Of a DNA stretch of 64,000 bases, positions 108 through 50,293 are shown one piece after another. The stretch is taken from assembly GCA_023245765.1 (NCBI GenBank), contig JAHFJP010000005.1, positions 997 to 64,996 on the forward strand, in the 5' to 3' direction. Each line of letters starts with the position of its first letter. Position 1 is the stretch's first letter. The notes beneath the pieces were generated by a model. That model saw nothing but the letters and a program-made list of their open reading frames with translations, was not told the origin of the DNA and made no database searches. The DNA comes from Candidatus Peribacteria bacterium (GTDB lineage: Bacteria > Patescibacteriota > Gracilibacteria > Peribacterales > Peribacteraceae). A program made the translations under genes and the position numbers.

Positions 108-1160
108 TCACGGAGCCGCCGGCGCTCCTCCCTGCAGCATCTGCCGTGCCTGGTCGGCCATGTTCTTCGCGATGGTCTGCACTTGCGTGGAAAGATCCTG
201 CAAACTGGGACTCAATGCCTTGGCTTTCTCGGCGAGTCCCCATGCGTCTTTGGTGAGCGTGATCACGTCCTGCAGTTTGCCGTCCGTTCCGGCCTTGTAG
301 GCCCGGACGAGTGCACGGAACGCTTCGGCGATCTTCACTGCCGCCTGCACGATCGGTGTGGTCGGCTTGCTCGTCAGTGCTCCACGGGCGGAGAGAAGCG
401 CGCGCGCGGAGGCCATATCGGCCTGTCCAAAATCCTTCGCCTCCAATGCCTGGAGGGTATGGACGAGATAGTCCTCTTCCGTCGAAAGGCCCGCCTGCGT
501 GCGCTTGTCTGCCTGGTACATGGCGAGGTAATAGACTTCCAGAGCCAGCTCCCCGCGCGTGAGTTCAAGATCAGGGCGAAGCTTACCGTCCGGTTCCACA
601 TGGATGATCACAGTCGAGACAGCGTAGCGCATGTACGGATAGAACCACTCGTCGGTGTTCGCAACATCCAGAGCCAGCGGTAGCTTGATCTCACTATAGG
701 CATTCGTATCGATGCTTTGGGATTTGAACAGGAGTTTGAGGAATTCCGCCCGGCGAACCGTGCGACTACCGTTGAACGTCGTTGCCTTTGGAGGACCATC
801 GATCAATCCCAGTTTGTTGAGCGCTGCTTCCACGTACGGCCTATACCACGCGTCCGCAGGAACATCTGTGTACGAGGTCTTGCTGAATGCAGCGATCTCC
901 TCTGCTGAAAGCTTGGATGCGACGAGAATCTTCACGGCCTCCGCGCGCGTTACTGCCTGCTTCGGCTTAAAGGTTCCATCGGGGTATCCCTGCATGATCC
1001 CTTTGGCTTTGAGAAATTCGACGGCGGGAAATTCTGGATTTTTGTCGGAGACATCGGAGAACGAGCCTGCCGCAGCCACAGGCATTGGAAAGAACGTAGC
1101 AATCACCACAGCCGTCGTGATGAGAGAAACGATGCGCGGAGATTGCCGAAGAGAAAACAT
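108..1160 (-). CDS. SLH-domain cell-surface protein (signal peptide, three N-terminal SLH repeats, Ala-rich helical C-terminus)
   Basis: 350-aa ORF. Signal peptide MFSLRQSPRIVSLITTAVVIATFFPMPVAAAG. SLH-like repeats FSDVSDKNPEFPAVEFLKAKGIMQGYPDGTFKP, YTDVPADAWYRPYVEAALNKLGLIDG and LDVANTDEWFYPYMRYAV. Confidence 0.75.
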   Translation of the reverse strand: MFSLRQSPRIVSLITTAVVIATFFPMPVAAAGSFSDVSDKNPEFPAVEFLKAKGIMQGYPDGTFKPKQAVTRAEAVKILVASKLSAEEIAAFSKTSYTDVPADAWYRPYVEAALNKLGLIDGPPKATTFNGSRTVRRAEFLKLLFKSQSIDTNAYSEIKLPLALDVANTDEWFYPYMRYAVSTVIIHVEPDGKLRPDLELTRGELALEVYYLAMYQADKRTQAGLSTEEDYLVHTLQALEAKDFGQADMASARALLSARGALTSKPTTPIVQAAVKIAEAFRALVRAYKAGTDGKLQDVITLTKDAWGLAEKAKALSPSLQDLSTQVQTIAKNMADQARQMLQGGAPAAP

Positions 1161-1900
1161 GGCGAAACGGATGCGACGATCGTAGCAAGAATTGTCGTAC
1201 GTTCAAATACGATACTGCGGCTCTTCCTTCTTGTTCGGGGCCGAACACATCCGATTACCCGGATCTCTGTGGACTTTTTAGGAAAAAGACATTCATTTGC
1301 TGTTCAGTGGAAGTTCAGGCAGATCATCAACAACACTGATAAAAAAAGGTGTTCGTGTCACACCCTTTCGTTGTCTCGAGAAAATGTACAAAGAATCTTC
1401 GGTCTATTTCGTTGAGATTGCATTGCCGGACGTGTGCTCCGTGAGCCCTTGCTTCTGCTGAAAGTTCAGACAGAGGTAATGCATTCGTTAGAGTGTGGAT
1501 TGTGACTGTTTGATGGAAATTTTGGAGTGCACCATCGGAAACAACATTCGTGAATACGTGCAGATGTTGCATTGGCTACCTCTGGCTGTTGCAGATGATC
1601 CAATTGAAAGATTCTTTCTGAAGAACAAAGTTCATACTGATTTGATACATCACATTTCTGTTGCGTGTTGAGCGGAATAATAGTCATCTAGCGAGCACGT
1701 TCACCTGTGTGCGGTTCTCAAGTTTATGGATCATTTTCTGCAATAAAGCAATGACAAGATCTCTATTCATGAAATGAAAGTTCAGAGTCAGATGATACAG
1801 TCTTTATACGTATATTAATCAATTCAAAAGCCATAAAATGGTCTATAGACACAAACTGTTCATATGGTTCAGATACATTATAGACATTTTAGTCATGAAA

Positions 1901-1909
1901 TGCTAAAAT
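1901..1909 (+). promoter_or_regulatory. extended -10 box TGCTAAAAT upstream of the HTH gene
   Basis: TGnTAAAAT lies in a roughly 28% GC stretch, 24 nt before ATG 1934. The same TGCTAnAnT form recurs at 5196, 6702 and 34377. Confidence 0.4.
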
Positions 1910-1933: not shown

Positions 1934-2539
1934 ATGCCACTCCGGTGTCTCCATGCGCGACGGCAAGACATAACAAATCTCCTGCAACATGCGGAGTCGA
2001 TCGGTCTCAGTCGTGATGCTCGACGCAGACTCGCGTGGTTTTCGTACGCGCTGAGTCACGACGGCAACATCAGTCTCACGTGCCGATACTTCGGCATTTC
2101 CCGTTCCACGTTTCTGCGGTGGGCCAGGCGTTTTGATCCACGACGTCCGGAGACGCTCGAGGAACACTCACGCCGGCCACATCGCATGCGTGCACCGGAG
2201 ACGTCACAGGAGATTGTCGCACTGATTCGTGGCTACCGCACCGCGTTCCCCACCATGGGCAAGAACGCCATCGTACAGAAACTCCTCACCGAGCATTCCC
2301 TCACTGTGTCGGCCTCCACGGTTGGCCGCGTGATTGAGCGCCACGGCTTCTTTTTCGGTGACCGCCCATCACATCAACACAAGCGCTCCGGCACCGATTA
2401 CGCGCCGGACAGGACTTTGGCATCGCCGACTGCGACTGCGTCTTCTGCTTCCACACCAGCCCTTCGACAGGGCTCAGGGGAGACAGGAGAGGCAGGCGCC
2501 CTCCCTGCCGCAGATCAATTACCGCTCTTCGGATCGTGA
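1934..2539 (+). CDS. HTH protein resembling the N-terminal DNA-binding region of IS481/IS3-type transposases, without a DDE catalytic domain
   Basis: 201-aa ORF. GISRSTFLRWARRFDPRRPETLEEHSRRPHRMRAP ... VSASTVGRVIERHG matches the HTH plus RSRRPH region of IS481-like transposases. No rve/DDE region follows. Its stop overlaps the next start (GTGA at 2536-2539). Confidence 0.6.
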   Translation: MPLRCLHARRQDITNLLQHAESIGLSRDARRRLAWFSYALSHDGNISLTCRYFGISRSTFLRWARRFDPRRPETLEEHSRRPHRMRAPETSQEIVALIRGYRTAFPTMGKNAIVQKLLTEHSLTVSASTVGRVIERHGFFFGDRPSHQHKRSGTDYAPDRTLASPTATASSASTPALRQGSGETGEAGALPAADQLPLFGS

Positions 2540-3525
2540 GATTCTTCCGCACCCCCATCGGCTCTAGCCTCATCGCGATTGCGATCGTTGCTCTGTGCCC
2601 ATTCTTCATTCTTGAGAACGCACAGGCTCTGGAGAGCGCGTCGTTCCAGTTGCAGACGCAGAGTCCCGATTGGCGGCCTCCCATCACGGGCACGAATTTC
2701 CAGATCACCTTCACCGCGCCCGACGACCAAGTTGCGTCTTCCGCGCCCGGCGGCATTGCCAAGTTCTACAGACCGCCAGCTCCTCCTCCGCCCCCGCCTC
2801 CCGCTCCTGCCCCCTCGGCTCCCGCAGCTGCGCCCGCACCGGTCGCTCCGGCGGCACCTGTCGCTGCTCCTGTCGTTACGCCCACACCCGTCACGGCGCC
2901 AGTCGTCAAAGCAGCAACGCCCGTCACGTCGCCTGCCCCTGTTGTGAACACGAAAGCTCCCGTGATGATCAACGGCATTCCGCAACGCTACGCGGCTCCC
3001 GCACCCGCTGCGGTTCCCGCTCCCGCTCCCGTTCCGGTGAAGGCGGCTCCTGTGGTTCCCGCGCCGACGAAGTCCACGGTCACCGCTCCGGCGGCGCCGA
3101 CACCTGCAACGATACCCATCAACCAGATCACGAAACCAACTCTGTCCGCGCCACCCATAACTGCCCCTGGTTCTGTACGCAGGGCGACACCTGCCGCGCC
3201 TCTTCAAGTTCCGCAGGAGCCTGCCGGCAAAACATCGCCAAATGCCCTTCCGCCTGCCAAGACGTCATCCACACCTCTGGCGCAACGGATCAGTGCACGG
3301 CTGGATCAACGCCTGCGCGAACGAAGCATCGCCTTCGGCGCATCACTCCTTATGGATGGAAACGGGGATATGGATCCCGTCCGGTCGGGATTGCTCGCCC
3401 TCTGCCTCTTCCTTGTTGTGCTCCTCGCGCATACGCGCAGGCGTCTGCGTCTGATGTATCCCTCCCTCCGAACTCAACGCCGCGTCGGTCGCGGACCGTT
3501 TACCTCCCGTCGCATACGACCATGA
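2536..3525 (+). CDS. secreted Pro/Ala-rich protein with C-terminal transmembrane anchor (putative envelope-spanning stalk)
   Basis: GTG start. Signal peptide MRFFRTPIGSSLIAIAIVALCPFFILENAQA. N-terminal SASFQL / GTNFQI motifs. About 230 aa of PAPxP/APV low complexity. C-terminal hydrophobic helix GLLALCLFLVVLLA followed by HTRRRLR. Its stop overlaps the next start (ATGA at 3522-3525). Confidence 0.6.
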   Translation: MRFFRTPIGSSLIAIAIVALCPFFILENAQALESASFQLQTQSPDWRPPITGTNFQITFTAPDDQVASSAPGGIAKFYRPPAPPPPPPPAPAPSAPAAAPAPVAPAAPVAAPVVTPTPVTAPVVKAATPVTSPAPVVNTKAPVMINGIPQRYAAPAPAAVPAPAPVPVKAAPVVPAPTKSTVTAPAAPTPATIPINQITKPTLSAPPITAPGSVRRATPAAPLQVPQEPAGKTSPNALPPAKTSSTPLAQRISARLDQRLRERSIAFGASLLMDGNGDMDPVRSGLLALCLFLVVLLAHTRRRLRLMYPSLRTQRRVGRGPFTSRRIRP

Positions 3526-5099
3526 ACATTCGCCGTGTTATCGTCGGCCTCGTGTTCCCGCTCCTCATTGGCGGGGGACTCTTCATGCTCGCGTCCGAAT
3601 CCGCGGTTGCCGCAGCCACCGTGCCGCAGCGCATCCCGTACGCCGGATATCTGCTGACGGGGGGAGGGTCGCCTCTGAGCGGTCCGTATCGTCTTCGCTT
3701 CAGCTACTGGAATACCGCCGATGCCCTCTCGAGCGACAGGACCGCGAGTGGCGCTATTAATACCGATGCCGCGGGCTATCTCGGCTGGCAAGAAACCGAT
3801 GTCGTCACTCTGGGGAACAAGGGATCGTTCACGGTGTTCCTCGGAAGCGGCACGACGTTGCCCGACTTCTCGACGTTCCGTGCGGCGGATCTCCGCTCGC
3901 TCCATCTGCAGGTCGAGGTGAGGACCATCTACTCGACCGACGCCGATTATGAACTTCTCGACCCGAATCCCGGCGATCCGACGATCGACCGCTCGGCTGC
4001 TCTTCCCGCGTTCTCCGCAATCAATGCCGACCTTGTTGATGGTCACGATATCGGAACGGGTAGCGGATCGATTCCCATGCTCGGCAGCGGGGGAGTGCTG
4101 AGCAAAGCGCGCATCCCTAGCGGTACGAATGCCAATACGTTCACGATCGATGCCGGCAACAGCGCAGGAAGCACGATCAATCTGAAATTTGGCGAATCCC
4201 TGAACAAGGTCCTGTCGTACGACAAAGTGAACTCGTGGTTCAATTTCAACGCCTCTGTCCGTATCCAGGGTAATCTGATCCTGAATGGACTCGTGAATGG
4301 CGTCGATGTGACGAATCTCGTGCCTTCCACCTATACGCCGCTGCGTGTCGCGTCGGGAGCAGGTCTGCACGTTGACGTATCTCCCGGCAACTATCGCGTC
4401 AACGGCAATGTGGTCAATTTCAGCGGCGCCGGTCTCGATGTCCCCAACGATACCAACAGCTACGTTTTCTTCTCATCGACCGGTGCACTCCTCAATCGCA
4501 GCGCGTTCCCGACGAATCAGAGCTTTATCCCGCTTGCGACTGTGACGACGATCAGCGGCAACATCACCACTGTTACCGACAAGCGTGTCCTGCAGAGCGA
4601 TGATAGAGAACATTCCATCCTCGATGTTCTGCACCCCGGATACCCGTCTTCCGCCTATGATGCTGATGGCAGCAGTAATGTGGGCCAGCTCTCGGTGGAC
4701 CACGACGGCACCTCCAAGAATAACTTCTACCAGTGGACGACCTCCAAAGCAGCCCTGAATGACTACGATATCGTTGTTCGCTACACGCTGCCGCAGAAGT
4801 TCATCCGCTGGCAGACGACTCCCTTTAAGCTCTACTATCGGACATCGTCTGCCGATGCAGCCGTCAGCAAGGCAGATATCGAAGTCTACGATACCGCAGG
4901 AAATGCCGTGACACTCGTCGGTACCAGCACAAACCTGACCTCGACGTCGTGGACGAGTACGAGCCTGACCTTCGGTGGTTCGCCGGCGTGGACAGCCGGG
5001 CAGACCTTCATCATCAAAATCCGGTCCTCGGCCAAAAATGCTGCAACGGTGCACATTGGCGATCTGGAACTGTCGACCGTCGAATTGCAGAAGCAATAG
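3522..5099 (+). CDS. secreted tail-fibre-like surface protein, paralogue 1
   Basis: The in-frame ATG at 3522 within the 809-aa ORF gives 525 aa starting MNIRRVIVGLVFPLLIGGGLFMLASESAVAAA (signal/anchor). Motifs: IPYAGYLLTGGGSPLSGPYRLRFSYW, INADLVDGHDIG (tail-fibre-like) and the TIDAGNSAGSTINLKFG...IQGNL module shared with 5226 and 6730. The C-terminal domain FYQWTTSKAALNDYDIVVRYTLPQKF is homologous to the C-terminus of the 5226 ORF. Confidence 0.7.
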   Translation: MNIRRVIVGLVFPLLIGGGLFMLASESAVAAATVPQRIPYAGYLLTGGGSPLSGPYRLRFSYWNTADALSSDRTASGAINTDAAGYLGWQETDVVTLGNKGSFTVFLGSGTTLPDFSTFRAADLRSLHLQVEVRTIYSTDADYELLDPNPGDPTIDRSAALPAFSAINADLVDGHDIGTGSGSIPMLGSGGVLSKARIPSGTNANTFTIDAGNSAGSTINLKFGESLNKVLSYDKVNSWFNFNASVRIQGNLILNGLVNGVDVTNLVPSTYTPLRVASGAGLHVDVSPGNYRVNGNVVNFSGAGLDVPNDTNSYVFFSSTGALLNRSAFPTNQSFIPLATVTTISGNITTVTDKRVLQSDDREHSILDVLHPGYPSSAYDADGSSNVGQLSVDHDGTSKNNFYQWTTSKAALNDYDIVVRYTLPQKFIRWQTTPFKLYYRTSSADAAVSKADIEVYDTAGNAVTLVGTSTNLTSTSWTSTSLTFGGSPAWTAGQTFIIKIRSSAKNAATVHIGDLELSTVELQKQ

Positions 5100-5195
5100 C
5101 GGAAAATACAACACGAGGTGGGGGAGCCAATATAACTATATGATAATATTATTGGTATAAGTCAATATAAGACGTGAGCACGGAAACGGAAAATT

Positions 5196-5204
5196 TGCTA
5201 TACT
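5196..5204 (+). promoter_or_regulatory. extended -10 box TGCTATACT for fibre paralogue 2
   Basis: TTGCTATACT lies 21 nt before ATG 5226. It is homologous to TTGCTATAAT at 6701-6710. Confidence 0.45.
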
Positions 5205-5225
5205 GGTCGGAACCCCAAAATACAT

Positions 5226-6566
5226 ATGACACACACCATTCACCGTCGGTTCAGTTCAGCGGCTCGAATGATGCTTGCAGTGGTCACGAGTGTCACATTC
5301 ATGTTCCTTATTATGGGAGAGACGGCGCACGCCGCGTCGTCGTGGAATCCGACACTGCTTGTGAACACGGAATCCTTCCAGACGATCGATGCCGGTGACG
5401 CCACAACGAATATTGAACTTCGTTTTGGAGACGGAGCTGCATCACGTCTATTCTACGATATTACGGGCACGCGGTTCATCTTCACGAAGCCGCTGGTTGT
5501 TCAGGGCAATCTGACCGCGACCGGTTCACTCAGTGTGAAGAAGGCCATTTCCGGTGGTACATTGCGCATCGATGGAGGAGGCGATATCTGGGGAACACTC
5601 GGTGTTTCCGGTGCAACCGTCCTCAAGAGCACCCTGAATGTTACGGGCAATACGACTGTAGGCACGATCACTGCAACCACTCTCAAGACTCGTGGAGCAT
5701 TGTCCGGTACGACGCTGCACACAGACGGCAATGCCGATATCTGGGGGAACCTCTCTGCAACGGGATCACTCAGGACCAAATCCGGAGCGACCATCAATGC
5801 TGATAACGATACTAATGATGCCATCCTTCAATTCGGGAATACGACTGCGCCGCAGACATTGAAGTTCATGAACGCTCGCCAGCGTTTCCTCTTCAGTAAA
5901 GATGTGAGCGTGATCGGAACACTGTCGGGCTCCAGTCTGACGGTCGATAACCGCACCACGACCTTCGGCACGACGGCGTACACATGGCCCAGCGCGCAAG
6001 GTGCCGCAAGTACGTACCTGAAGAATGACGGTGCAGGTGGTCTCTCCTGGAGCACTGTGACTGTCGGCTCCTCCAGCGGCAATATTCTCTCACTCAGTCC
6101 GCAATACTCCAATGCCGTCTACTTCGCCTCCGGTTCCACCACGGTCGGTACGCTGACGTACGCTTCCTCGGGTGCGCTGGATAACTACTACCGTTGGACG
6201 ACAACGCGCAGTACTGCGCAGGATTACTGGATCTCGGTACGTGTGCAGGTTCCCAAGAACTTTACACACTTCGAGACGGCCTCCGGCATCCAGTTGCGAC
6301 TGCGGACCAACACGCTGGTGCCGACGGATAACAACGTGACCGTTCGCTTGATCGATACCGCCAATGCCTCGGTCGCCATCACCAACAACGTCAACCTGAG
6401 CGGCAGCTATGTGGGTGCATGGAGAACGAATTCCATCAGGAACGTGACGGCTGGTACCTACACACCAGGCGGCTACATCACCCTGCTGATGAAACTGGTG
6501 TCGAAAGCGGCCGGATATATCGACGTTGGCTCCGTCAAATTCAACTGGTCCACGACCACTCCATAA
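5226..6566 (+). CDS. secreted tail-fibre-like surface protein, paralogue 2
   Basis: 446-aa ORF with a signal peptide ending ETAHA/AS. SSWNPTLLVNTESFQTIDAGD...QGNLTATGSLSVKK...INADNDTNDAILQFGN is near-identical to the 6730 ORF. The C-terminal YYRWTTTRSTAQDYWISVRVQVPKNF domain resembles the 3522 ORF. A hairpin terminator follows. Confidence 0.8.
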   Translation: MTHTIHRRFSSAARMMLAVVTSVTFMFLIMGETAHAASSWNPTLLVNTESFQTIDAGDATTNIELRFGDGAASRLFYDITGTRFIFTKPLVVQGNLTATGSLSVKKAISGGTLRIDGGGDIWGTLGVSGATVLKSTLNVTGNTTVGTITATTLKTRGALSGTTLHTDGNADIWGNLSATGSLRTKSGATINADNDTNDAILQFGNTTAPQTLKFMNARQRFLFSKDVSVIGTLSGSSLTVDNRTTTFGTTAYTWPSAQGAASTYLKNDGAGGLSWSTVTVGSSSGNILSLSPQYSNAVYFASGSTTVGTLTYASSGALDNYYRWTTTRSTAQDYWISVRVQVPKNFTHFETASGIQLRLRTNTLVPTDNNVTVRLIDTANASVAITNNVNLSGSYVGAWRTNSIRNVTAGTYTPGGYITLLMKLVSKAAGYIDVGSVKFNWSTTTP

Positions 6567-6591
6567 TACTTTATCGCTGACAATTCAAGAA

Positions 6592-6617
6592 TGCGGCTTA
6601 CAGAAGCCGCATTTTTT
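6592..6617 (+). terminator. rho-independent terminator after fibre paralogue 2
   Basis: TGCGGCTT-ACAG-AAGCCGCA hairpin followed by TTTTTT. Confidence 0.7.
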
Positions 6618-6701
6618 ATGTTTGACTTGATTAACATTCATATATGAAGAGTCAATTCCCACATTCCTCAAGAATACCCGGAGGCCCAAATCGAGTTTTT
6701 T

Positions 6702-6710
6702 TGCTATAAT
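6702..6710 (+). promoter_or_regulatory. extended -10 box TGCTATAAT for fibre paralogue 3
   Basis: TGcTATAAT is followed by an AAGAGGAAA SD-like element and ATG 6730. Confidence 0.5.
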
Positions 6711-6729
6711 AAGAGGAAATACTCACATC

Positions 6730-9240
6730 ATGCCTTCACAAAAAATCCGTTGTTCGGCAGCGCTCCTGGTCCTGTGCATGGTGCTCGGTCTGTATCCCGG
6801 AAGACTCATTGCGAGTACCTGGAATCCGACACTTCTCGTGAATACGGAATCCTTCGAGACGATTGATTCCGGTGACAAGTCGACGAATATCGAATTCCGC
6901 TTCGGCGATAATGCGGACAAGAGAATCTCCTGGAACATCGTCGGAGCCGGCAGCGGTGCGTTCAAGTTCACGAAAGCGGCCTACATTCAGGGAAACTTGA
7001 CGGCGACCGGCTCACTCAGTGTGAAGAAAACAATCTCTGGCGCGACGCTGCGCGTCGACGGCAATGGTGACATCTGGGGAAGCTTCGCCGCAACCGGCTC
7101 GATCAAGACAAAATCCGGTGCGATCATCAACGCTGATAATGACACCAATGATGCCCTGCTTGTCTTCGGGAACTCGACAGCGAACCAGACGCTGAAGTTT
7201 GTGCATGCATCACAACGCTTCCAGTTCACCACCAACGTGAGCGTACTCGGCAACCTCTCCGGTGCTACTATCAACGTGAATAACCTGCGGAGTTGCGACA
7301 CGATTGATACCGATACTGCGGGACGCTTTACCTGCGGGACTGACACCGGGGGCAGTGGTCTCAGTGTAAGCGACGGGGATGCTCGATACCTCCTGAAGCA
7401 GGGAAACACGAAATGGAGCGCGATATCCGGTGCCCTCTTGATCTACAAAGGCGCAACGTCTCCCACCGTACCGCCGTTGGCCGATACGGGAGTGGTCCTG
7501 GAGGTGATCGGAACAGTTTCAGGTAGCGTTATCCATGCCCAGAACCGTCTCGAATCATCGGGATCGCTGCTTGTGACCGGCAACGGCAAGTTCGACGGCG
7601 GTACGCTCTGGATCGATTCGACGGCCAACAGAGTGGGCGTCAATAACCTCGCTCCGGAAAGCACACTGGAAGTCTCCGGAAACATGTCGGGTCGCCTGAT
7701 TCATGCGCAGAACCGGATCGAATCTTCCGGATCGCTCGTCATCCGGAGCAATCAAACTCAGCCCGTGCTTGCGAGTTCGGGCTCAAAAGTCGGCATTGGG
7801 AAGTCAGTGCCAAACAGCGCGCTCGACGTTGCCGGCACAATCTCTGGATCCGCATTGACCGTGAGCAGCTTGAAGGCGTGCAGCATCCTGCAGACGAACA
7901 CCGGTGGTGTTGTCTCGTGCGGCGGTATGGTGGTCAAGAGGAAGCCGACGACCCAAACCGTCAATAACACGGTTGTCCCGGTCCACGACGCATCGCAGTC
8001 GTTCAAGCTCGCGGCAAATGACACATGGGTGTTCCGGTTCAGTAACCTCGTCAGGGCCGCTACGGCAAGTCAAACAATGCGATGGCACGTCGCCGGTCCG
8101 CCGGGCTCTACCTGCATATACGGCGCTGTGGATATCGATACTGGCATCACGGGGACAGGTGCTACCGTGTGCAACTATGCCGTTGTTACGACTGCAGCGG
8201 CGAAAGCGAACAACATTTCCACCGTTGAGGTCTATGGAACAATTTTCAACGGTGCGACTGCGGGAAGCGGGTACATCCGGTGGGGTCAGCACATTGCGGC
8301 GGCAACCAATACCCAAGTGCTTTCGGGCAGTACGGTGATCGCTTTTAAGCCTGTCGGGTCCGACATTGCCGAGGTCTATCGCACGCGAGTGCCCAATCTG
8401 ATTCCCGGTTCCGTTGTGAGTGTCGATCCTAAACTCCCGTCAGGCGTCATTCGTAGCACCAGAGCGTATGACGAAAAGATGCTTGGTGTGATCTCCACAA
8501 AACCAGGAATGCTGATCGGAGGAGATGATCTACTCGATGGCAAAGGCGGTCTTCCGGTCTTCCTCGCGCTTGCCGGCCGTGTGCCCGTGATGGTGACCGA
8601 CGAGAATGGGCCCATTGCGCCCGGTGATTACCTCACGTCATCCTCCAAGCCGGGACTGGCGATGCGCGCAACCCGGGCTGGACCGGTCATTGGTAAAGCG
8701 CTGACGGGATTTAGTGGACCGGGTGATGGCGTCGTCACTGTGTTCGTCCAGAATTCTCTGTTGCCGGATTCTCTCAGTGACACGCCTGTGCGAGATCTCG
8801 CGGGGGATCTGGCGCTAGGCACTATTCCAGATTATGTGCTGCCTGTGGGCTCCCTCACTCGCGGGCGTACAGCACGCATTACAGCACGGGGAACGTACAG
8901 CACGGGGTCTGTTCCCGGCACTCTCTCGCTTCAGATTTTCCTCGGCTCGATTCCACTCTGTGATACCCGTGAAAACGCCTACGTTCCCAACGTTCGTGAC
9001 CGCAGTTGGACACTTGACTGCACATTCACGGTTCGTAGGAATGGAATTCTCGGAGAAATAGACGCGCAGGGACTGGCTATCCTCTCGACGACTCGCACCG
9101 AGGCTCAGACGATCGGCTTGGAAAATCTACAGACGATTCGCGTGAATACGGCGAAGGCAAACTCTCTTCGTTTCCGTTCAAACGCCAGTCCACCGCAGAA
9201 CGTGCATCTACGTCAAATGGTCGTGCAATTCCTCAACTAG
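6730..9240 (+). CDS. secreted tail-fibre-like surface protein, paralogue 3 (multi-domain, 836 aa)
   Basis: Has a signal peptide. Its N-terminal 180 aa are homologous to the 5226 ORF. Disulfide-loop motifs SCDTIDTDTAGRFTCG and ACSILQTNTGGVVSCG. VGIGKSVPNSALDVAGTISG and RVGVNNLAPESTLEVSGNMSG are tail-fibre-type motifs. A beta-sandwich-like middle domain is followed by the SDIAEVY...GRVPVMV...GDYLTSSSKPGLAMRAT...GKAL module and a 160-aa terminal domain. Confidence 0.8.
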   Translation: MPSQKIRCSAALLVLCMVLGLYPGRLIASTWNPTLLVNTESFETIDSGDKSTNIEFRFGDNADKRISWNIVGAGSGAFKFTKAAYIQGNLTATGSLSVKKTISGATLRVDGNGDIWGSFAATGSIKTKSGAIINADNDTNDALLVFGNSTANQTLKFVHASQRFQFTTNVSVLGNLSGATINVNNLRSCDTIDTDTAGRFTCGTDTGGSGLSVSDGDARYLLKQGNTKWSAISGALLIYKGATSPTVPPLADTGVVLEVIGTVSGSVIHAQNRLESSGSLLVTGNGKFDGGTLWIDSTANRVGVNNLAPESTLEVSGNMSGRLIHAQNRIESSGSLVIRSNQTQPVLASSGSKVGIGKSVPNSALDVAGTISGSALTVSSLKACSILQTNTGGVVSCGGMVVKRKPTTQTVNNTVVPVHDASQSFKLAANDTWVFRFSNLVRAATASQTMRWHVAGPPGSTCIYGAVDIDTGITGTGATVCNYAVVTTAAAKANNISTVEVYGTIFNGATAGSGYIRWGQHIAAATNTQVLSGSTVIAFKPVGSDIAEVYRTRVPNLIPGSVVSVDPKLPSGVIRSTRAYDEKMLGVISTKPGMLIGGDDLLDGKGGLPVFLALAGRVPVMVTDENGPIAPGDYLTSSSKPGLAMRATRAGPVIGKALTGFSGPGDGVVTVFVQNSLLPDSLSDTPVRDLAGDLALGTIPDYVLPVGSLTRGRTARITARGTYSTGSVPGTLSLQIFLGSIPLCDTRENAYVPNVRDRSWTLDCTFTVRRNGILGEIDAQGLAILSTTRTEAQTIGLENLQTIRVNTAKANSLRFRSNASPPQNVHLRQMVVQFLN

Positions 9241-10231: not shown

Positions 10232-12595
10232 CTACAGACTCGACTCATCTCCCCGCAAGCGCTTTAGGAGTGTGGCATTCGTCGGGAGCTTCTCCGCGGG
10301 AATGCTTCGCTTCTCCCACTGTTTCCGTAGTGCATCCAGATAGCCTTTTTCACCGATCAACCGGTCGATGAACTGTTGCGCTGTTTTGGCAAACCGGCTC
10401 TTCTTTCCGTTTTCGAGCAGTGAGTGAATGACGGTGACAAACGCGTCTTCACCACCGCGAACTTCGGCGCGCACATCATCCAGCACAGCGTCGAGGATAC
10501 TTTGCTCATCCAGGCCCGCGAGGAACTTGAGATCCTTGTCCGTCCCCGATGGGAAGTAGTGGTTCACGCCGAGACGGCGCAGTGAGCAGGGGAGCTGGAA
10601 GTCGGCGATGACGTCGGCAACCTGTGTTGCCAATCCTCCTTCACTGTGGTGATCCTCAACGACGATCAGGTGCGACGTCTCCAGCGCCGCGCGGATGATC
10701 TCGGACGCGTCGAACGGACGAATGCATCCGACGTTCAGCACGCGAACGCGTTTTTTTTCCTCGTTCCAAAGCCGGTCCGCCGCCGTTACGGCATCGTGCA
10801 CAGGAATCCCGATCGCGATGATCGTCGCGTCATCCGTTATGTCGCCGGCCCCGCGCACGACGTCAATCTTTCCGTCGAACGAATACTCTTTGCCGTAGAT
10901 GATCTTGCCTTTTGGTGTTTTCAACTGCTCATGGCCGGAGCGCGGGAAGAAGGCGTACACGCTCTGACTGCCATCGGCGACGATTTCCATTGCACGCTCG
11001 GCTGCGGCAGCTGCTTGATTCGAGTCTGCGGGCATCCAGATCTGCGTGTGGTCGAGCGGGATGTTGAGGTAGTTGCGTTCCTGGTGAGTCTCGCCGTCTT
11101 CTCCTACACTCAGTCCCGTGTGCGTGCAATCGTGTAAGACGCCGCAGCGGGTGTGGCCGCAGTTGACGTCGATCAATCGTGCACTGGCCCGTGCCTCATT
11201 CGTGCCGAACGCGGCGAACGTGTAGGTCACGGGGAGAAGGCCCGCCTGGCGCATGCCTGCGGCCATCATGTACATATTCGCTTCCGCAACGCCCACGTTG
11301 ATCACCCGATCGGGGAATTCTTTGCCGACTTTATCGAAGCCGCCGGAGCCCGCGAGGTCCGCATGCAGAACAACAATGCGCGGATCGGCCTTCATCAGCG
11401 CCTTCAGATGTACGGAGCCAAACTCCTGGCGTGCCGCACCTTTCTCGGTCGTGATGGTACGCGCGTAGCCCTTCAGGGTTTTCGTGGAAAAGGGGAGGGC
11501 GCTCGGGACCGGGACCGGGACGGGGCTCGGACGGAATTTCTCGTAGCCTTTGACGAGTTCAGGGAGCGACCGAAGATCTTTCAGAGCTGCCGCTGCAACG
11601 TCATCCTTCAGGGGGCTGCCGTGGAAGTTGGCGGCACCGGTGTTCGATCCGTCTTCCATGATCTTCACGCCATGTCCCATGGTTGTGTAGTAGCAGATGA
11701 AAATCGGATGACCTTTGCCCTTCTGGGCATCAGCGAGGTCGAGAGCGGCGACGACTTGTGCGGGATCGTTGCCGTTCTGCACTTCGATCACCGTCCAGCC
11801 TGCAGCAGCCGCAATCGCCGCCATGTCGGCCGCGACCACTTTGCTGGGCATGTCGGAGAGCTGGATGTCATTGAGGTCCAAATGGACGATCAAATTATCG
11901 ATCTGCAGATGTGACGCAAGACGCATTGCCTCCATCACTTGTCCTTCCTGACAATCGCCGTCGGCGAGCAGGACATCGACCGTTCCTTTCTTCTTCAAGA
12001 ACTTCAGCCCAAATGCTTCGCCGAGTGCATTGCTGACGCCTTTCCCGAGCGGCCCGGCGCCAAACGGAATATCGCCAATGCCGGCTTCCGCGTGCCCCGG
12101 CAATCCGGACGGCGTTCGGAACGTATCAATGATCGCCTGTGGGGACGCGAGACGCTTGTCACGACCCTCGCGATGCATCAGCCATTGCATGCCATAGGCG
12201 AGCAGACTCAGGTGTCCGGCGCTCATGCGGAAGGCTGGATCAATTCCTGGAGTCCTCCTCTTGTGGACGAAATACGTGAAGGTGAAGGCGGAGAGGGGAC
12301 CGCCAGGGTGGCCGGACTTGTGCTTGGTCGGCGCCTGGATGCACAGGTGCGCCATGATCAGATGTGCAAGTGTGTACGCCTCCAGATCGCCGCTGGAGAT
12401 CTTCTTCTCATCTTTCGGACCAATCCAATGTCGCTCGCCCGGGTGCGATGCCGCTGCGACGCGTTGGAGGGACATGGGGACGTCCTTTGGGTCCTTGCCA
12501 ACCAATGATTTCGGATCGGGACGGACGCTTGGCATGGGACGATTGTATGGATTTGGCGGATGAAATGCCATTGTCATCATCCACCCACGCATCAT
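10232..12595 (-). CDS. tkt: transketolase (long form, 787 aa, with N- and C-terminal extensions)
   Basis: Motifs GHPGGPLSAFTF, ADGDCQEGQVMEA (TPP/Mg site) and THTGLSVGEDGETHQ. There is an extra helical tail of about 100 aa. Confidence 0.85.
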   Translation of the reverse strand: MMRGWMMTMAFHPPNPYNRPMPSVRPDPKSLVGKDPKDVPMSLQRVAAASHPGERHWIGPKDEKKISSGDLEAYTLAHLIMAHLCIQAPTKHKSGHPGGPLSAFTFTYFVHKRRTPGIDPAFRMSAGHLSLLAYGMQWLMHREGRDKRLASPQAIIDTFRTPSGLPGHAEAGIGDIPFGAGPLGKGVSNALGEAFGLKFLKKKGTVDVLLADGDCQEGQVMEAMRLASHLQIDNLIVHLDLNDIQLSDMPSKVVAADMAAIAAAAGWTVIEVQNGNDPAQVVAALDLADAQKGKGHPIFICYYTTMGHGVKIMEDGSNTGAANFHGSPLKDDVAAAALKDLRSLPELVKGYEKFRPSPVPVPVPSALPFSTKTLKGYARTITTEKGAARQEFGSVHLKALMKADPRIVVLHADLAGSGGFDKVGKEFPDRVINVGVAEANMYMMAAGMRQAGLLPVTYTFAAFGTNEARASARLIDVNCGHTRCGVLHDCTHTGLSVGEDGETHQERNYLNIPLDHTQIWMPADSNQAAAAAERAMEIVADGSQSVYAFFPRSGHEQLKTPKGKIIYGKEYSFDGKIDVVRGAGDITDDATIIAIGIPVHDAVTAADRLWNEEKKRVRVLNVGCIRPFDASEIIRAALETSHLIVVEDHHSEGGLATQVADVIADFQLPCSLRRLGVNHYFPSGTDKDLKFLAGLDEQSILDAVLDDVRAEVRGGEDAFVTVIHSLLENGKKSRFAKTAQQFIDRLIGEKGYLDALRKQWEKRSIPAEKLPTNATLLKRLRGDESSL

Positions 12596-13224
12596 TCCCG
12601 TGGATTATTCCGGATGTATCGTCGTATGCGGTCCAATGCATCGTTGTCACGGATGATTCGGTCATGAAAACGCGGTTGCCATCCAAAATCGATGCCGTGT
12701 TTTGTTGCATACGATTTCACACCGATTTTGAATCCCCGGATGACCGATGCCAAATTCCGTGATTGGGGTCCGAAATGATTTTGATGCCCGCGTTGTAGAG
12801 ACGCAAAATTTTGCGTCTCTACGTCGCATGGATCATGGCAAATCCGCAAAATGCCGTGCACGTGATCCGGCATTACCACAAACGCATCCGGACGAACCAA
12901 CGGAAAATGTTCGGGAATCGATTCCCAACATTGCCATGCGATCGCGCCCATTTCGTTCACACACATAATGCGGTTCTGAATATGTCCGAATATTGGCATA
13001 CGATTACATGTACACATCGTCACAAAATACCAACCCGATGAATAATCATGGTCCCGCATTCGCGCGGATTCGACCCGGTATCGTTTATGGAAAAACGTCA
13101 TGAATTCATCATGTGCACCTCTGGCATATCCCGAAATACCCTCCTCAACATTTTCTTTTTGATGTCGCAGATTTATCGCTTGTGGAAGACACAAATTCGG
13201 TTCCACAACCCCGTGGAACATCAC
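12592..13224 (-). CDS. IS200/RayT-like HUH (Y1) transposase-family protein, standalone
   Basis: Motifs YSSGWYFVTMCT, FVVMPDHVHGIL (HUH), FGPQSRNLASVIRGFK and WQPRFHDRIIRDNDALDRIRRYIRNNP. The true start may be the internal ATG at 13101. It overlaps the tkt start by 4 nt. It contains the perfect palindrome at 12795-12822. Confidence 0.7.
   Translation of the reverse strand: MMFHGVVEPNLCLPQAINLRHQKENVEEGISGYARGAHDEFMTFFHKRYRVESARMRDHDYSSGWYFVTMCTCNRMPIFGHIQNRIMCVNEMGAIAWQCWESIPEHFPLVRPDAFVVMPDHVHGILRICHDPCDVETQNFASLQRGHQNHFGPQSRNLASVIRGFKIGVKSYATKHGIDFGWQPRFHDRIIRDNDALDRIRRYIRNNPRE
12795..12822. repeat. perfect 28-nt palindrome GTAGAGACGCAAAATTTTGCGTCTCTAC inside the RayT-like CDS
   Basis: Read directly from the sequence. 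It is translated in frame as VETQNFASLQ. Confidence 0.95.
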
Positions 13225-49938: not shown

Positions 49939-50229
49939 TTACATTCGTATATTTTTTTTCTGCAGTTTCTTGAGCCGAGCTGCCAGCGCTCCGTTCTCGT
50001 AGCGCATTACGCGCGCGCAGCGGCTCACTTTGGCGATGCTCGTTCGCGCGGCCTTCGCAATTGTGCGATGCGAAACGCCTGCGGCAACGCTGCGCATGAT
50101 CTGCCAGCGCTTGGCGATGTAGTTGATTTCGGCAGGGGAAAGAAGATCCCGTAACAGACGCTCAGCGTCCTTCTGGTCCCGAATGGAACTAAACAGCCTG
50201 TATAGCTCTTTATGCTGTGGATCTGTCAT
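49939..50229 (-). CDS. TrpR-like YerC/YecD family DNA-binding protein
   Basis: 96 aa. LLSPAEINYIAKRWQIMRSVAAGVSHRTIAKAARTSIAKVSR. Confidence 0.7.
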   Translation of the reverse strand: MTDPQHKELYRLFSSIRDQKDAERLLRDLLSPAEINYIAKRWQIMRSVAAGVSHRTIAKAARTSIAKVSRCARVMRYENGALAARLKKLQKKNIRM

Positions 50230-50293
50230 GAACGCAGTATAGCATGTCTATTGGCCTTTTCCAAGCCAGTGTGATACCACGTACTAGTACATC

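What the first reader, a model, noticed from the sequence alone, without database searches (positions are those of the whole stretch)
1934..9240. Five-gene co-directional locus: transposase-derived HTH, Pro/Ala stalk protein and three tail-fibre-like secreted paralogues (candidate uncharacterised surface-fibre/adhesin system)
Seen directly:
- The first three genes are joined by 4-nt overlaps (GTGA at 2536-2539, ATGA at 3522-3525).
- Two further genes each have their own TGCTATAnT promoter.
- Gene 2 has a signal peptide, about 230 aa of PAPV low complexity and a C-terminal TM helix followed by an RRR cluster, which fits an envelope-spanning tether.
- Genes 3-5 all have signal peptides and share a module (TIDxGD..NIxxxFG....F.F......QGNL..G).
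- They carry motifs I associate with phage tail fibres and tail-fibre-domain surface proteins: IPYxGxL, INADLVDG, VGIGxxxPxxxLxVxG.
- Genes 3 and 4 end in homologous beta-sandwich-like domains ((F/Y)Y(Q/R)WTT....DY.I.VR..P..F).

No capsid, terminase, portal or integrase genes are present, so this does not look like a prophage.

Inference: in a small-genome, possibly episymbiotic organism, a tethered trimeric fibre with exchangeable tips would be a plausible host-attachment apparatus. None of the five products has a function I can name.
Basis: partly seen in the sequence, partly recalled or inferred. Interest (0 to 1): 0.72.

Follow-up and report, generated by a model that had tools for sequence, protein, structure and literature searches.

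The report
Conserved Peribacteria surface-fibre gene cluster
This is a real gene cluster, conserved across the uncultured Peribacteria, that encodes phage-tail-fibre-like surface fibres, a membrane-anchored proline-rich stalk and a small DNA-binding protein derived from a transposase; it probably lets these tiny bacteria bind sugars on other cells, though no function has been tested.

Summary
In detail: five co-directional genes, GTGA/ATGA overlaps, three TG-extended -10 boxes, a Pro/Ala stalk protein and three paralogous secreted proteins.

The organism is a Peribacteria/Peregrinibacteria (CPR) bacterium. The locus is not a prophage. It sits between an SLH wall-protein gene and class-A beta-lactamase-like/transketolase genes, and that layout recurs in most of 80 species-level genomes.

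- G3 is a lineage-wide orthologue (38-63% identity over most or all of its length). It has a phage tail-fibre-like segment and a carbohydrate-binding-module-like tip.
- G4 and G5 are variable fibres with a shared N-terminal module.
- G5 carries a phi29-gp12-type autocleaving chaperone domain, with predicted cleavage at S544|D545.
- G2 belongs to a conserved family with no Pfam or PDB match.
- G1 is an HTH-only descendant of an IS481-type transposase under purifying selection (dN/dS 0.16).

The five genes are functionally linked. In relatives, G2-G3, HTH-G2-G3 and HTH-TM-fibre occur as single polypeptides.

The closest known analogue is the Bdellovibrio MAT fibre repertoire. I read this as a new variant of phage-derived surface fibres. 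The attachment function and the role of the HTH remain inferences.

The parts
108..1160 (-). SLH-domain wall-binding protein (350 aa, three SLH repeats). It is the constant, divergently transcribed neighbour of the locus.
   Evidence: Pfam SLH E 1e-31, 3 stretches. A homologue lies divergently upstream of G3 in 67 of 69 related loci with enough upstream sequence.
1866..1909 (+). G1 promoter region: element GGTTCAGATACATTATAGACA (1866-1886, containing the -35-like TAGACA) and TG-extended -10 box TGCTAAAAT (1901-1909).
   Evidence: Consensus scan scores 10 of 12 with TG. The element is unique in the window. It is conserved upstream of G1 only in the nearest relatives.
1934..2539 (+). G1: 201-aa cytoplasmic HTH protein. 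HTH_28/HTH_32 at aa 31-143 equals the N-terminal DNA-binding part of an IS481-type transposase. It has no DDE domain and no TM segment, and ends in a low-complexity tail.
   Evidence: dN/dS is 0.16 against the L006 orthologue.
2536..3525 (+). G2: 329-aa stalk protein. Signal peptide (2536-2628), short SASFQL...TNFQIT domain (2629-2721), Pro/Ala/Val/Thr-rich run (2761-3321), TM segment (3379-3435) and a basic tail.
   Evidence: Collinear with the N-terminal 361 aa of P0122, 40% identity, E 2e-38. Family HMM hits in 68 of 80 related loci and weakly in the window. No Pfam or PDB match.
3522..5099 (+). G3: 525-aa conserved fibre. Signal peptide (3522-3614), N-terminal beta domain (3633-4001), NADLVDG linker plus shared module (4128-4295), phage tail-fibre-like segment (4329-4634) and carbohydrate-binding-module-like jelly roll (4608-5087).
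   Evidence: 113 homologues at 38-63% identity. PDB 8kec_A E 1.1e-6. PHROG tail collar E 1.2e-7. AF2 mean pLDDT 79. Foldseek matches.
5196..5204 (+). TG-extended -10 box TGCTATACT of G4.
   Evidence: Conserved in front of the G4 orthologues in L006 and L007.
5226..6566 (+). G4: 446-aa variable fibre. Signal peptide (5226-5333), N-terminal module beginning ASSWNPTLLVNTE (5334-5555), bactofilin-like beta-helical repeats, and a C-terminal domain homologous to that of G3 (6093-6548).
6587..6616 (+). Intrinsic-terminator-like hairpin plus T run after G4.
   Evidence: 13-pair stem; sequence.
6702..6710 (+). TG-extended -10 box TGCTATAAT of G5.
6730..9240 (+). G5: 836-aa variable fibre. Signal peptide (6730-6813), shared module plus repeats (6814-7344), VGIG-type repeats, jelly-roll knob (about 7987-8319), predicted autocleavage site S544|D545 (8359-8364), Peptidase_G2-type intramolecular chaperone (8362-8769) and an unassigned C-terminal 156 aa (8770-9237).

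Best explanation
The region is a lineage-specific cell-surface fibre locus of Peribacteria, built from domesticated phage receptor-binding-protein parts.

Shown here:
- G3, G4 and G5 carry N-terminal hydrophobic, signal-peptide-like segments and have phage tail-fibre or tailspike features.
- G3 is the conserved core fibre, with a lectin-like (CBM-type) tip.
- G4 and G5 are variable fibres. They share an N-terminal module that starts right after the signal-peptide-like AxA site, and they carry different tips.
- G5 has a phi29-gp12-type C-terminal chaperone domain.
- G2 has a signal peptide, a short beta-rich head, a long Pro/Ala-rich spacer and a C-terminal membrane anchor.
- G1 is an HTH-only descendant of an IS481 transposase kept under purifying selection.
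- The five parts are linked by conserved gene order, by 4-nt overlaps and by in-frame fusions in other genomes.

Inferred:
- The fibres fold as trimers.
- G5 cleaves itself at S544|D545 and sheds its chaperone.
- G2 spans the wall and holds or positions G3, which is made in 1:1 ratio with it.
- G4 and G5 dock on the surface through the shared module.
- The tips bind glycans on partner cells or particles, so the system works as attachment apparatus.
- G1 is the locus-specific transcription regulator, and in the fused variants it works at the membrane.
For: Phage-fibre nature:
- G3 aa 270-371 matches the cyanophage A-1(L) tail fibre 8kec_A at E 1.1e-6 and PHROG 31611 'tail collar' at E 1.2e-7.
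- The G3 model (pLDDT above 90 over aa 363-522) matches CBM61, CBM86 and CBM11 (TM 0.43-0.56 normalised to the target) and tailspike C-terminal domains. In the viral library it matches host-specificity, tail-fibre and CenC-like proteins.
- The G5 aa 530-690 profile hits the tailspike chaperone Dpo31-D4 (E 8e-5) and phi29 gp12 (3gqh E 6.6e-4; 6qz9 residues 689-746).
- 5 of 9 family members hit Pfam Peptidase_G2 (best E 3.5e-7).
- Fold match to 3gqh has TM 0.52.
- D545 aligns with gp12 D692, the residue after the end of mature gp12* (1-691) (PMC6542822).

The five genes form a system:
- 114 species-level genomes encode G3, almost all Peribacteria or Peregrinibacteria.
- SLH gene upstream in 67 of 69 loci; G2 adjacent in 63 of 77; G1 upstream in 41 of 75; module-bearing fibre downstream in 65 of 70.
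- The same flanks are seen in L001, L007 and L008.

Fusions:
- G2-G3 share one stop-free frame in 37 loci, and HTH-G2-G3 in 7 (P0145, P0122, P0132 and P0139).
- 16 HTH-TM-fibre proteins were found, including 9 of the 150 best 50%-identity representatives.

G1 is not decaying:
- About 47 stand-alone HTH-only homologues exist without an rve domain.
- dN/dS is 0.16.

Not phage-borne:
- No relatives were found on IMG/VR contigs.
Against: - No experiment exists, and all relatives come from metagenome assemblies.
- Trimer formation, surface display and ligand binding are untested.
- Only monomers could be modelled. The shafts have low confidence, and the G5 model is poor overall (mean pLDDT 57.7) outside aa 540-670.
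- The G5 match to Peptidase_G2 is below Pfam's cut-off for G5 itself (E 0.38) and rests on the family profile.
- The CBM assignment rests on TM-scores of about 0.5.
- G3 is unusually conserved for a host-range determinant (about 47% identity floor across the class). That would fit binding to a conserved ligand, or to the cell's own wall, as well as it fits host attachment.
- G1 is missing upstream of G3 in 34 of 75 loci, so the HTH is not obligatory.
- The candidate operator upstream of G1 is conserved only in the nearest relatives.
- No G2-fibre contact has been shown.
Confidence: 0.6

Rival explanations
1. Self-directed envelope structure. The fibres are not adhesins for other cells but a constitutive surface coat or wall-associated scaffold. 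The CBM-like tips of G3 and G4 bind the bacterium's own secondary wall polymers alongside the SLH protein, and G2 acts as a wall-spanning spacer.
For: - G3 is a single-copy, class-wide orthologue with 43 invariant residues and an identity floor of about 47%. That is unusual for a host-range determinant.
- The SLH wall-binding gene is the most constant neighbour, in 67 of 69 loci.
- A class-A beta-lactamase/PBP-like gene is also a frequent neighbour.
- Peribacteria invest heavily in wall and surface polymers (PMC4736985).
Against: - G4- and G5-type proteins are mosaic and variable in their tips. This is the pattern of receptor-binding proteins, not of a coat.
- Autochaperone-matured knobs are typical of phage receptor binders and of the Bdellovibrio MAT prey-recognition fibres (PMC10769870).
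- No S-layer family matches G3-G5.
Confidence: 0.2
2. Trans-membrane signalling device. The HTH is the output domain of a membrane-tethered sensor whose ectodomain is the fibre. Contact or export is reported to the chromosome by proteolytic release of the HTH. In the window the same logic is split into separate, translationally coupled genes.
For: - 18 independent fused proteins have the order HTH, basic stretch, single TM, AxA, then fibre or G2-G3.
- The charge distribution places the HTH in the cytoplasm.
- There is precedent: signal peptidase acts as the site-1 protease of the membrane anti-sigma factors RsiV and RsiP (PMC4183432, PMC8844934).
Against: - In the window and in about 47 other genomes G1 is a free soluble protein with no TM segment.
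- Fusions could be tolerated accidents of 4-nt-overlap genes.
- No cleavage, DNA site or regulon is known.
- 34 of 75 loci lack the HTH upstream of G3.
Confidence: 0.15
3. Defective prophage or tailocin remnant. The fibre genes are leftovers of an integrated phage, and G1 is a fragment of an insertion sequence that landed nearby.
For: - Phage-type domains are present in G3 and G5.
- G1 matches transposase families.
- A REP-associated tyrosine transposase-like ORF lies 3 kb downstream.
Against: - The cluster has the same position and order between SLH and beta-lactamase/transketolase genes in many species.
- dN/dS is 0.13-0.23 for G1, G3, G4 and G5.
- No capsid, terminase, portal, sheath or baseplate match was found among the five genes or the flanking genes examined.
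- No relatives lie on viral contigs.
- G1-type proteins lack the DDE domain in about 47 genomes.
Confidence: 0.03

Closest known systems
Bdellovibrio bacteriovorus MAT (mosaic adhesive trimer) fibre proteins (PMC10769870)
   Same: - Several paralogues per genome.
- Each has a signal peptide, then a conserved N-terminal beta-rich domain, then a beta-helical shaft, then diverse C-terminal tips.
- Some members have an autoproteolytic phage-type chaperone and others have a beta-sandwich tip instead.
- MAT fibres are surface-located and bind glycans of other bacteria.
- The G5 model gives a weak Foldseek hit to the Bd2133 fibre (8ond).
   Different: - No sequence match of G3-G5 to any MAT structure in the PDB.
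- The chaperone is Peptidase_G2/phi29-gp12 type, not S74.
- The organism is a CPR bacterium with SLH-type wall proteins, not a Gram-negative predator.
- The locus carries a dedicated HTH gene, a stalk-protein family and an SLH neighbour. In relatives these are fused to the fibres; the passages of the MAT paper read here mention nothing comparable.
Phage receptor-binding proteins with intramolecular chaperones: phi29 gp12 pre-neck appendage (3gqh, 3suc, 6qz9) and cyanophage A-1(L) tail fibre (8kec)
   Same: - Sequence-level similarity of G3 aa 270-371 to 8kec.
- Profile-level and fold-level similarity of G5 aa 540-680 to the gp12 C-terminal fragment, with the D-x-A-E motif at the cleavage position.
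- Knob followed by chaperone order.
   Different: - The genes are chromosomal, syntenic across a bacterial class and have signal peptides.
- There are no virion attachment domains and no other phage genes.
- G5 has 156 extra residues after the chaperone.
Membrane-tethered regulators cleaved by signal peptidase (RsiV, RsiP) and sensors with extracellular carbohydrate-binding modules (RsgI); ToxR-type one-component membrane regulators
   Same: The fused relatives have a cytoplasmic regulatory domain, a single TM segment, an AxA site and an extracellular domain that includes glycan-binding-type folds. RsgI and ToxR are cited from my own knowledge.
   Different: - The cytoplasmic part is a transposase-type HTH, not an anti-sigma or OmpR-type domain.
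- The ectodomain is a long phage-type fibre.
- In the window itself the HTH is a separate soluble protein.
- No proteolysis or signalling has been shown.
IS481-family transposases
   Same: G1 aa 32-143 aligns with positions 2-109 of the 284-position NCBIfam model at E 1.7e-21. True IS481 transposases appear as distant homologues.
   Different: - Score of 77 bits against a cut-off of 224.
- No rve/DDE domain.
- About 47 orthologues of 157-220 aa sit at a fixed chromosomal position under purifying selection.
- This is a domesticated DNA-binding domain, not a mobile element.

Membership tests
Peptidase_G2 / intramolecular chaperone of phage tailspikes (Pfam PF11962; phi29 gp12 C-terminal fragment) | Sequence match to the family model or to solved members | tested here: inconclusive
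   G5 alone scores E 0.38 against PF11962, below the cut-off. However, 5 of 9 aligned homologues match (best E 3.5e-7). The 9-sequence profile hits Dpo31-D4 (E 8.4e-5), 3gqh (E 6.6e-4) and 6qz9 (E 0.003).
Peptidase_G2 / intramolecular chaperone of phage tailspikes (Pfam PF11962; phi29 gp12 C-terminal fragment) | Cleavage-site motif (small residue | D-x-A-E-aromatic) at the start of the domain | tested here: met
   D, A and E are invariant in the 9-sequence alignment. G5 reads GS|DIAEVY at aa 543-550. D545 aligns with residue 1 of chain 3gqh_A and with residue 692 of gp12. Mature gp12* ends at residue 691.
Peptidase_G2 / intramolecular chaperone of phage tailspikes (Pfam PF11962; phi29 gp12 C-terminal fragment) | Fold of the chaperone domain | tested here: met
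   G5 aa 540-670 is modelled at pLDDT 80-92. Foldseek finds 3gqh_A (TM 0.52 on the target, probability 1.00) and 3suc. The match is of modest strength.
Peptidase_G2 / intramolecular chaperone of phage tailspikes (Pfam PF11962; phi29 gp12 C-terminal fragment) | Autoproteolysis coupled to trimer folding | not testable with these tools
   This needs expression of G5 and an S544/D545 mutant.
MAT superfamily (Bdellovibrio) | Homologous ~130-aa N-terminal domain directly after the signal peptide | not tested
   G4 and G5 have a conserved module in the same position. No MAT N-terminal sequence or structure was available to compare. PDB sequence searches gave no MAT hit.
MAT superfamily (Bdellovibrio) | Intertwined trimeric beta-helix shaft with variable tips, with or without an S74 chaperone | tested here: inconclusive
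   Variable tips and repeats are present. Only monomer models were possible and the shafts have low confidence. S74 is absent from the window's genes but present in some relatives (PF13884 in P0116 and P0119).
IS481 transposase | N-terminal HTH DNA-binding region | tested here: met
   HTH_28 and HTH_32 score above the Pfam cut-offs. NCBIfam IS481 model positions 2-109 are matched.
IS481 transposase | DDE (rve) catalytic domain and full-length score | tested here: not met
   G1 is 201 aa and scores 77 bits against a cut-off of 224. No PF00665 match was found in G1 or in about 47 close homologues.
Bactofilin (PF04519) | Score above the gathering threshold; cytoplasmic polymer-forming protein | tested here: not met
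   G4 scores 13 bits against a cut-off of 27.9. The proteins have N-terminal signal sequences. 'Bactofilin/CcmA' labels on relatives reflect a beta-helical repeat resemblance only.
Prophage / tailocin | Capsid, terminase, portal, sheath/tube or baseplate genes next to the fibre genes | tested here: not met
   The flanks are SLH, class-A beta-lactamase-like, transketolase and C39 peptidase genes, in the window and in relatives. No relatives lie on IMG/VR contigs.
Sortase-anchored wall proteins | LPXTG-type motif before the C-terminal hydrophobic segment and basic tail | tested here: not met
   The G2 C-terminus reads ...LLMDGNGDMDPVRSGLLALCLFLVVLLAHTRRRLRL..., with no LPXTG-like motif. Read directly from the translation.
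Type IV pilin / pseudopilin (one relative is labelled PulG) | Class III signal peptide (G|F-x-x-x-E) at the N-terminus | tested here: not met
   G3 starts MNIRRVIVGLVFPLL... with an AxA-type site. P0220, labelled PulG by JGI, shows only the TM-loop-TM leader of the G2-G3 type. The CofB pilin hit is E 0.006, below the cut-off.

The most novel reading that the evidence does not exclude
The transposase-derived HTH is a regulator delivered by the export pathway itself. In the fused relatives, the HTH, linker and TM segment form an oversized signal peptide in front of AxA|SSWNPTLLVNTE. Signal peptidase would free the fibre outside and leave one membrane-anchored HTH per exported fibre. Intramembrane proteolysis would then release the HTH to the chromosome. 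The window's G1-G2-G3 (GTGA and ATGA overlaps) would be the split form of the same device. This would be a previously undescribed way of coupling surface-fibre export or contact to transcription in bacteria that have few classical signalling systems.
Probability: 0.15. Interest if true: 0.85.

Novelty: new variant of a known kind. Interest (0 to 1): 0.62.

Why it matters
Peribacteria and their CPR relatives are abundant and uncultured. They are thought to depend on other cells, yet how they recognise partners is largely unknown. Type IV pili are the only well-studied attachment device in this radiation (papers listed).

This locus supplies a concrete, class-wide candidate:
- a conserved lectin-tipped fibre;
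- exchangeable phage-type fibres;
- a wall-spanning stalk family with no known relatives;
- a dedicated regulator.

It extends the idea that bacteria recruit phage receptor-binding modules for cell-cell recognition, from Bdellovibrio MAT fibres to the CPR. It also offers defined reagents for finding hosts, because tip domains could serve as probes. The recurrent fusion of a transposase-derived HTH to the signal anchor of exported fibres is, as far as my searches went, undescribed, and it is testable.

Tried and rejected
- Direct family searches of G2, G4 and G5 (Pfam, NCBIfam, PHROGs, PDB sequences) gave nothing above threshold.
- A profile of the G2 N-terminal domain found no solved structure or Pfam family.
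- The 'bactofilin', 'PulG' and 'CofB pilin' leads were checked and rejected (see the membership tests).
- Scans of IMG/VR for G3 and G5 relatives found none. That method needs short conserved peptides and is not very sensitive.
- I looked for a G1 operator shared by the three promoters. The 21-nt element upstream of G1 is unique in the window, absent from the G4 and G5 promoters, and conserved in only 4 of 43 related loci. It is therefore not evidence for regulation.
- The G5 full-length model was poor (mean pLDDT 57.7). Its last 160 residues, which have only one homologue, stayed unassigned.
- A G2-like gene on the minus strand between the SLH gene and G1, as seen in L006 and L007, is not present in the window.
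- Literature searches for this locus or for Peribacteria surface fibres found nothing specific.

Full report
**Observation**

The five co-directional ORFs exist as described: G1 1934-2539, G2 2536-3525, G3 3522-5099, G4 5226-6566 and G5 6730-9240. The GTGA and ATGA overlaps are at the stated positions.

TGCTATACT and TGCTATAAT lie about 20 nt upstream of the G4 and G5 start codons. A third such box, TGCTAAAAT (1901-1909), precedes G1. The pattern TGCTAWAMT occurs only four times in the 64-kb window against 0.38 expected, and three of the four are these sites. A strong hairpin terminator follows G4. The locus therefore looks like three transcription units: G1-G2-G3, G4, and G5.

A hydropathy scan gives the following:
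- G1 has no TM segment.
- G2 has an N-terminal hydrophobic segment and a C-terminal TM (aa 282-300) followed by RRR.
- G3, G4 and G5 each have one N-terminal hydrophobic segment.

G2 residues 76-290 are 24% Pro and 21% Ala. Paralogy is real: G4/G5 N-termini E 2e-54, G3/G4 E 3e-16 including the C-terminal domain, G3/G5 E 4e-7. No further copies exist in the window.

**Organism and context**

Homologues of G1, G3 and G5 come almost only from Candidatus Peribacteria/Peregrinibacteria and a few other CPR groups.

The flanks in the window are an SLH-domain protein (108-1160, minus strand), a class-A beta-lactamase-like protein, transketolase, a REP-type tyrosine-transposase-like ORF and a C39-like peptidase. 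The same neighbourhood is seen in a 1.39-Mb Peribacteria genome and several other contigs. There, SLH is transcribed divergently, then come HTH, G2, G3 and fibres, then beta-lactamase-like and transketolase genes.

A scan of one genome per GTDB species found G3 relatives in 114 genomes, and 80 loci were analysed. The counts, over loci with enough flanking sequence, are:

| Feature | Loci |
|---|---|
| SLH gene divergently upstream of G3 | 67 of 69 |
| G2-type ORF directly upstream of G3 | 63 of 77 (2 more on the other strand) |
| G1-type HTH upstream on the same strand | 41 of 75 |
| Gene carrying the G4/G5 module within 1.2 kb downstream | 65 of 70 |

No phage structural genes flank the cluster, and no relatives were found on IMG/VR viral contigs. 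This is a chromosomal, vertically conserved locus and not a prophage.

**The parts**

*G1.* It matches HTH_28 and HTH_32 above Pfam's cut-offs, and positions 2-109 of the 284-position IS481 transposase model, but it has no DDE domain. About 47 stand-alone homologues of 157-220 aa share 49-81% identity. Real IS481 transposases with rve domains appear only as distant hits. Against the nearest orthologue G1 is 80.6% identical with dN/dS 0.16. It is a domesticated DNA-binding domain and not an IS remnant.

*G2.* It has no Pfam, NCBIfam, PHROG or PDB match. It is nonetheless a real gene: it aligns end to end with the N-terminal 361 residues of P0122 (40% identity, E 2e-38). Its family is recognisable by four features:
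- a signal peptide;
- a roughly 55-aa head with two or three S-x-S-F-x-L motifs and a conserved Trp;
- a low-complexity spacer;
- a C-terminal TM segment with a basic tail.

The window's copy has a shortened head (SASFQL...TNFQIT).

*G3.* It is a class-wide orthologue, with 113 hits at 38-63% identity, most of them over nearly the full length. In a 48-sequence alignment, 43 residues are invariant. Residues 270-371 match the solved cyanophage A-1(L) tail fibre (E 1.1e-6) and a PHROG tail family.

The AlphaFold model (mean pLDDT 79) has a confident N-terminal beta domain, a low-confidence shaft, and a confident C-terminal jelly roll at aa 363-522. The jelly roll resembles carbohydrate-binding modules CBM61, CBM86 and CBM11 and tailspike C-terminal domains. 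In the viral library the model matches host-specificity and tail-fibre proteins.

*G4.* It shares this C-terminal domain with G3 and shares its N-terminal module with G5.

*G5.* The segment at aa 530-690, aligned with eight homologues, hits the chaperone domain of a tailspike and the C-terminal fragment of phi29 gp12. Five of the nine sequences match Pfam Peptidase_G2, and the modelled domain (pLDDT 80-92) matches 3gqh.

The invariant D-x-A-E motif places G5 D545 opposite gp12 D692, the first residue after mature gp12* (1-691). I therefore predict self-cleavage at S544|D545. The region before it (about aa 420-530) resembles trimeric jelly-roll knobs of phage decoration and receptor-binding proteins at modest confidence. 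The last 156 residues remain unassigned.

**Fusions link the parts**

- In 37 related loci G2 and G3 lie in one stop-free frame, and in 7 loci HTH, G2 and G3 do.
- Called proteins show this directly. P0122, P0132 and P0139 are G2-G3 fusions. P0145 reads HTH, TM, G2 head, spacer, TM, basic loop, signal-like TM, then G3, in 884 aa.
- Sixteen further proteins have the G1-type HTH, a basic stretch, one TM segment and then the G4/G5 module. These include 9 of the 150 best representatives of the module family.
- In all of them the TM segment ends in A-x-A directly before (A)SSW(N/S)PTLLVNTE, the same junction as in unfused G4 and G5.

These topologies are all consistent with a cytoplasmic HTH and extracellular G2 head and fibres. 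This is Rosetta-stone evidence that the five genes work together.

The module family is small and lineage-restricted: 319 representatives at E ≤ 0.001 among 1.84 billion clusters.

**How it most likely works**

Shown:
- N-terminal hydrophobic, signal-peptide-like segments on the fibre proteins;
- phage-type fibre, lectin-type and autochaperone domains;
- a membrane-anchored low-complexity stalk protein;
- a conserved HTH;
- tight genetic linkage of all five.

Inferred:
- G3, G4 and G5 form trimers.
- G5 sheds its chaperone.
- G2 spans the wall from its C-terminal anchor and positions G3, with which it is co-translated or translationally coupled in 1:1 ratio.
- G4 and G5 dock through the shared module.
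- The tips bind glycans of partner cells.
- G1 regulates the locus.

The main rival is a self-directed coat, which the strong conservation of G3 and the SLH neighbour would also fit. A bolder reading is that the HTH-bearing signal anchor reports fibre export or contact to the chromosome after cleavage. This has a precedent in RsiV and RsiP, which are cleaved by signal peptidase. It applies to the fused relatives and is untested.

**Comparison with known systems**

The closest known system is the Bdellovibrio MAT fibre repertoire (PMC10769870). It has the same logic: signal peptide, conserved N-terminal domain, beta-helical shaft, diverse tips, and an optional autoproteolytic chaperone.

Homology of the N-terminal domains was not testable here. 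The chaperone type differs (G2, not S74), and the passages of the MAT paper I read describe no HTH, stalk or SLH partners. The proteins are not members of the bactofilin, pilin, sortase-substrate or IS481-transposase families (see the membership tests).

**Verdict**

It is a new variant of a known kind: phage-derived surface fibres. Two of its elements, the G2 family and the HTH-signal-anchor fusions, were not described anywhere in my searches.

Limits:
- Everything is computational.
- All relatives are metagenome-assembled.
- Models are monomeric.
- Several assignments rest on profile-level or TM ≈ 0.5 matches.

Noticed in passing
window 3522-5099 (G3) compared with L006/L010 and P0122-P0128: G3 is mosaic relative to its nearest relatives. 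The C-terminal domain is 74-89% identical, but the N-terminal and middle parts are only 45-55%, which is the family-wide floor. Neighbouring G1, G4 and G5 are 78-84% identical. Only P0122, which shares the window's PA-rich G2 type, reaches 60% in the N domain. In L006 and L007 the G2-like gene sits on the opposite strand upstream of the HTH gene. This suggests exchange of a G2 plus G3 N-part cassette.
   Followed up: partly
relatives P0329, P0343, P0374, P0383, P0395 and P0080 (linker between HTH and TM): The HTH-TM-fibre fusions carry a conserved Cys motif (H-x-C-P-F-C-R ... W) just before the basic stretch and the TM segment. This could be a metal-binding or redox element. It is absent from the window's G1.
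   Followed up: no
window 12592-13224 (-): A 210-aa ORF resembling a REP-associated tyrosine transposase (NCBIfam NF047646, E 4e-15, below the cut-off) lies between the transketolase and C39-peptidase genes.
   Followed up: partly
window 49939-50244 (-): The only other TGCTATACT box in the window lies 6 nt upstream of the ATG of a 96-aa YerC/YecD (TrpR-like) HTH ORF. This suggests a leaderless or very short-leader transcript.
   Followed up: partly
window 1839-1890: Two TATAGACA copies 35 nt apart (1844-1851 and 1879-1886), and a 10-nt palindrome GTCTATAGAC, lie just upstream of the G1 -10 box. The flanking element GGTTCAGAnACATnaTAGACA is conserved only in the closest relatives, 4 of 43 loci.
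   Followed up: partly
window 2001-4000: GC content is 63% against about 54% elsewhere, caused by the Pro/Ala-rich G2. As a result the G3 reading frame stays open back to 2670, and a 230-aa Arg-rich ORF runs on the minus strand. Both appear to be by-products of composition.
   Followed up: partly
relatives P0329 (4019 aa) and P0342 (2853 aa): Giant proteins begin with the same G1-type HTH, TM segment and SSW-PTLLVNTE module. The HTH-signal-anchor arrangement is therefore also used for very large surface proteins.
   Followed up: no
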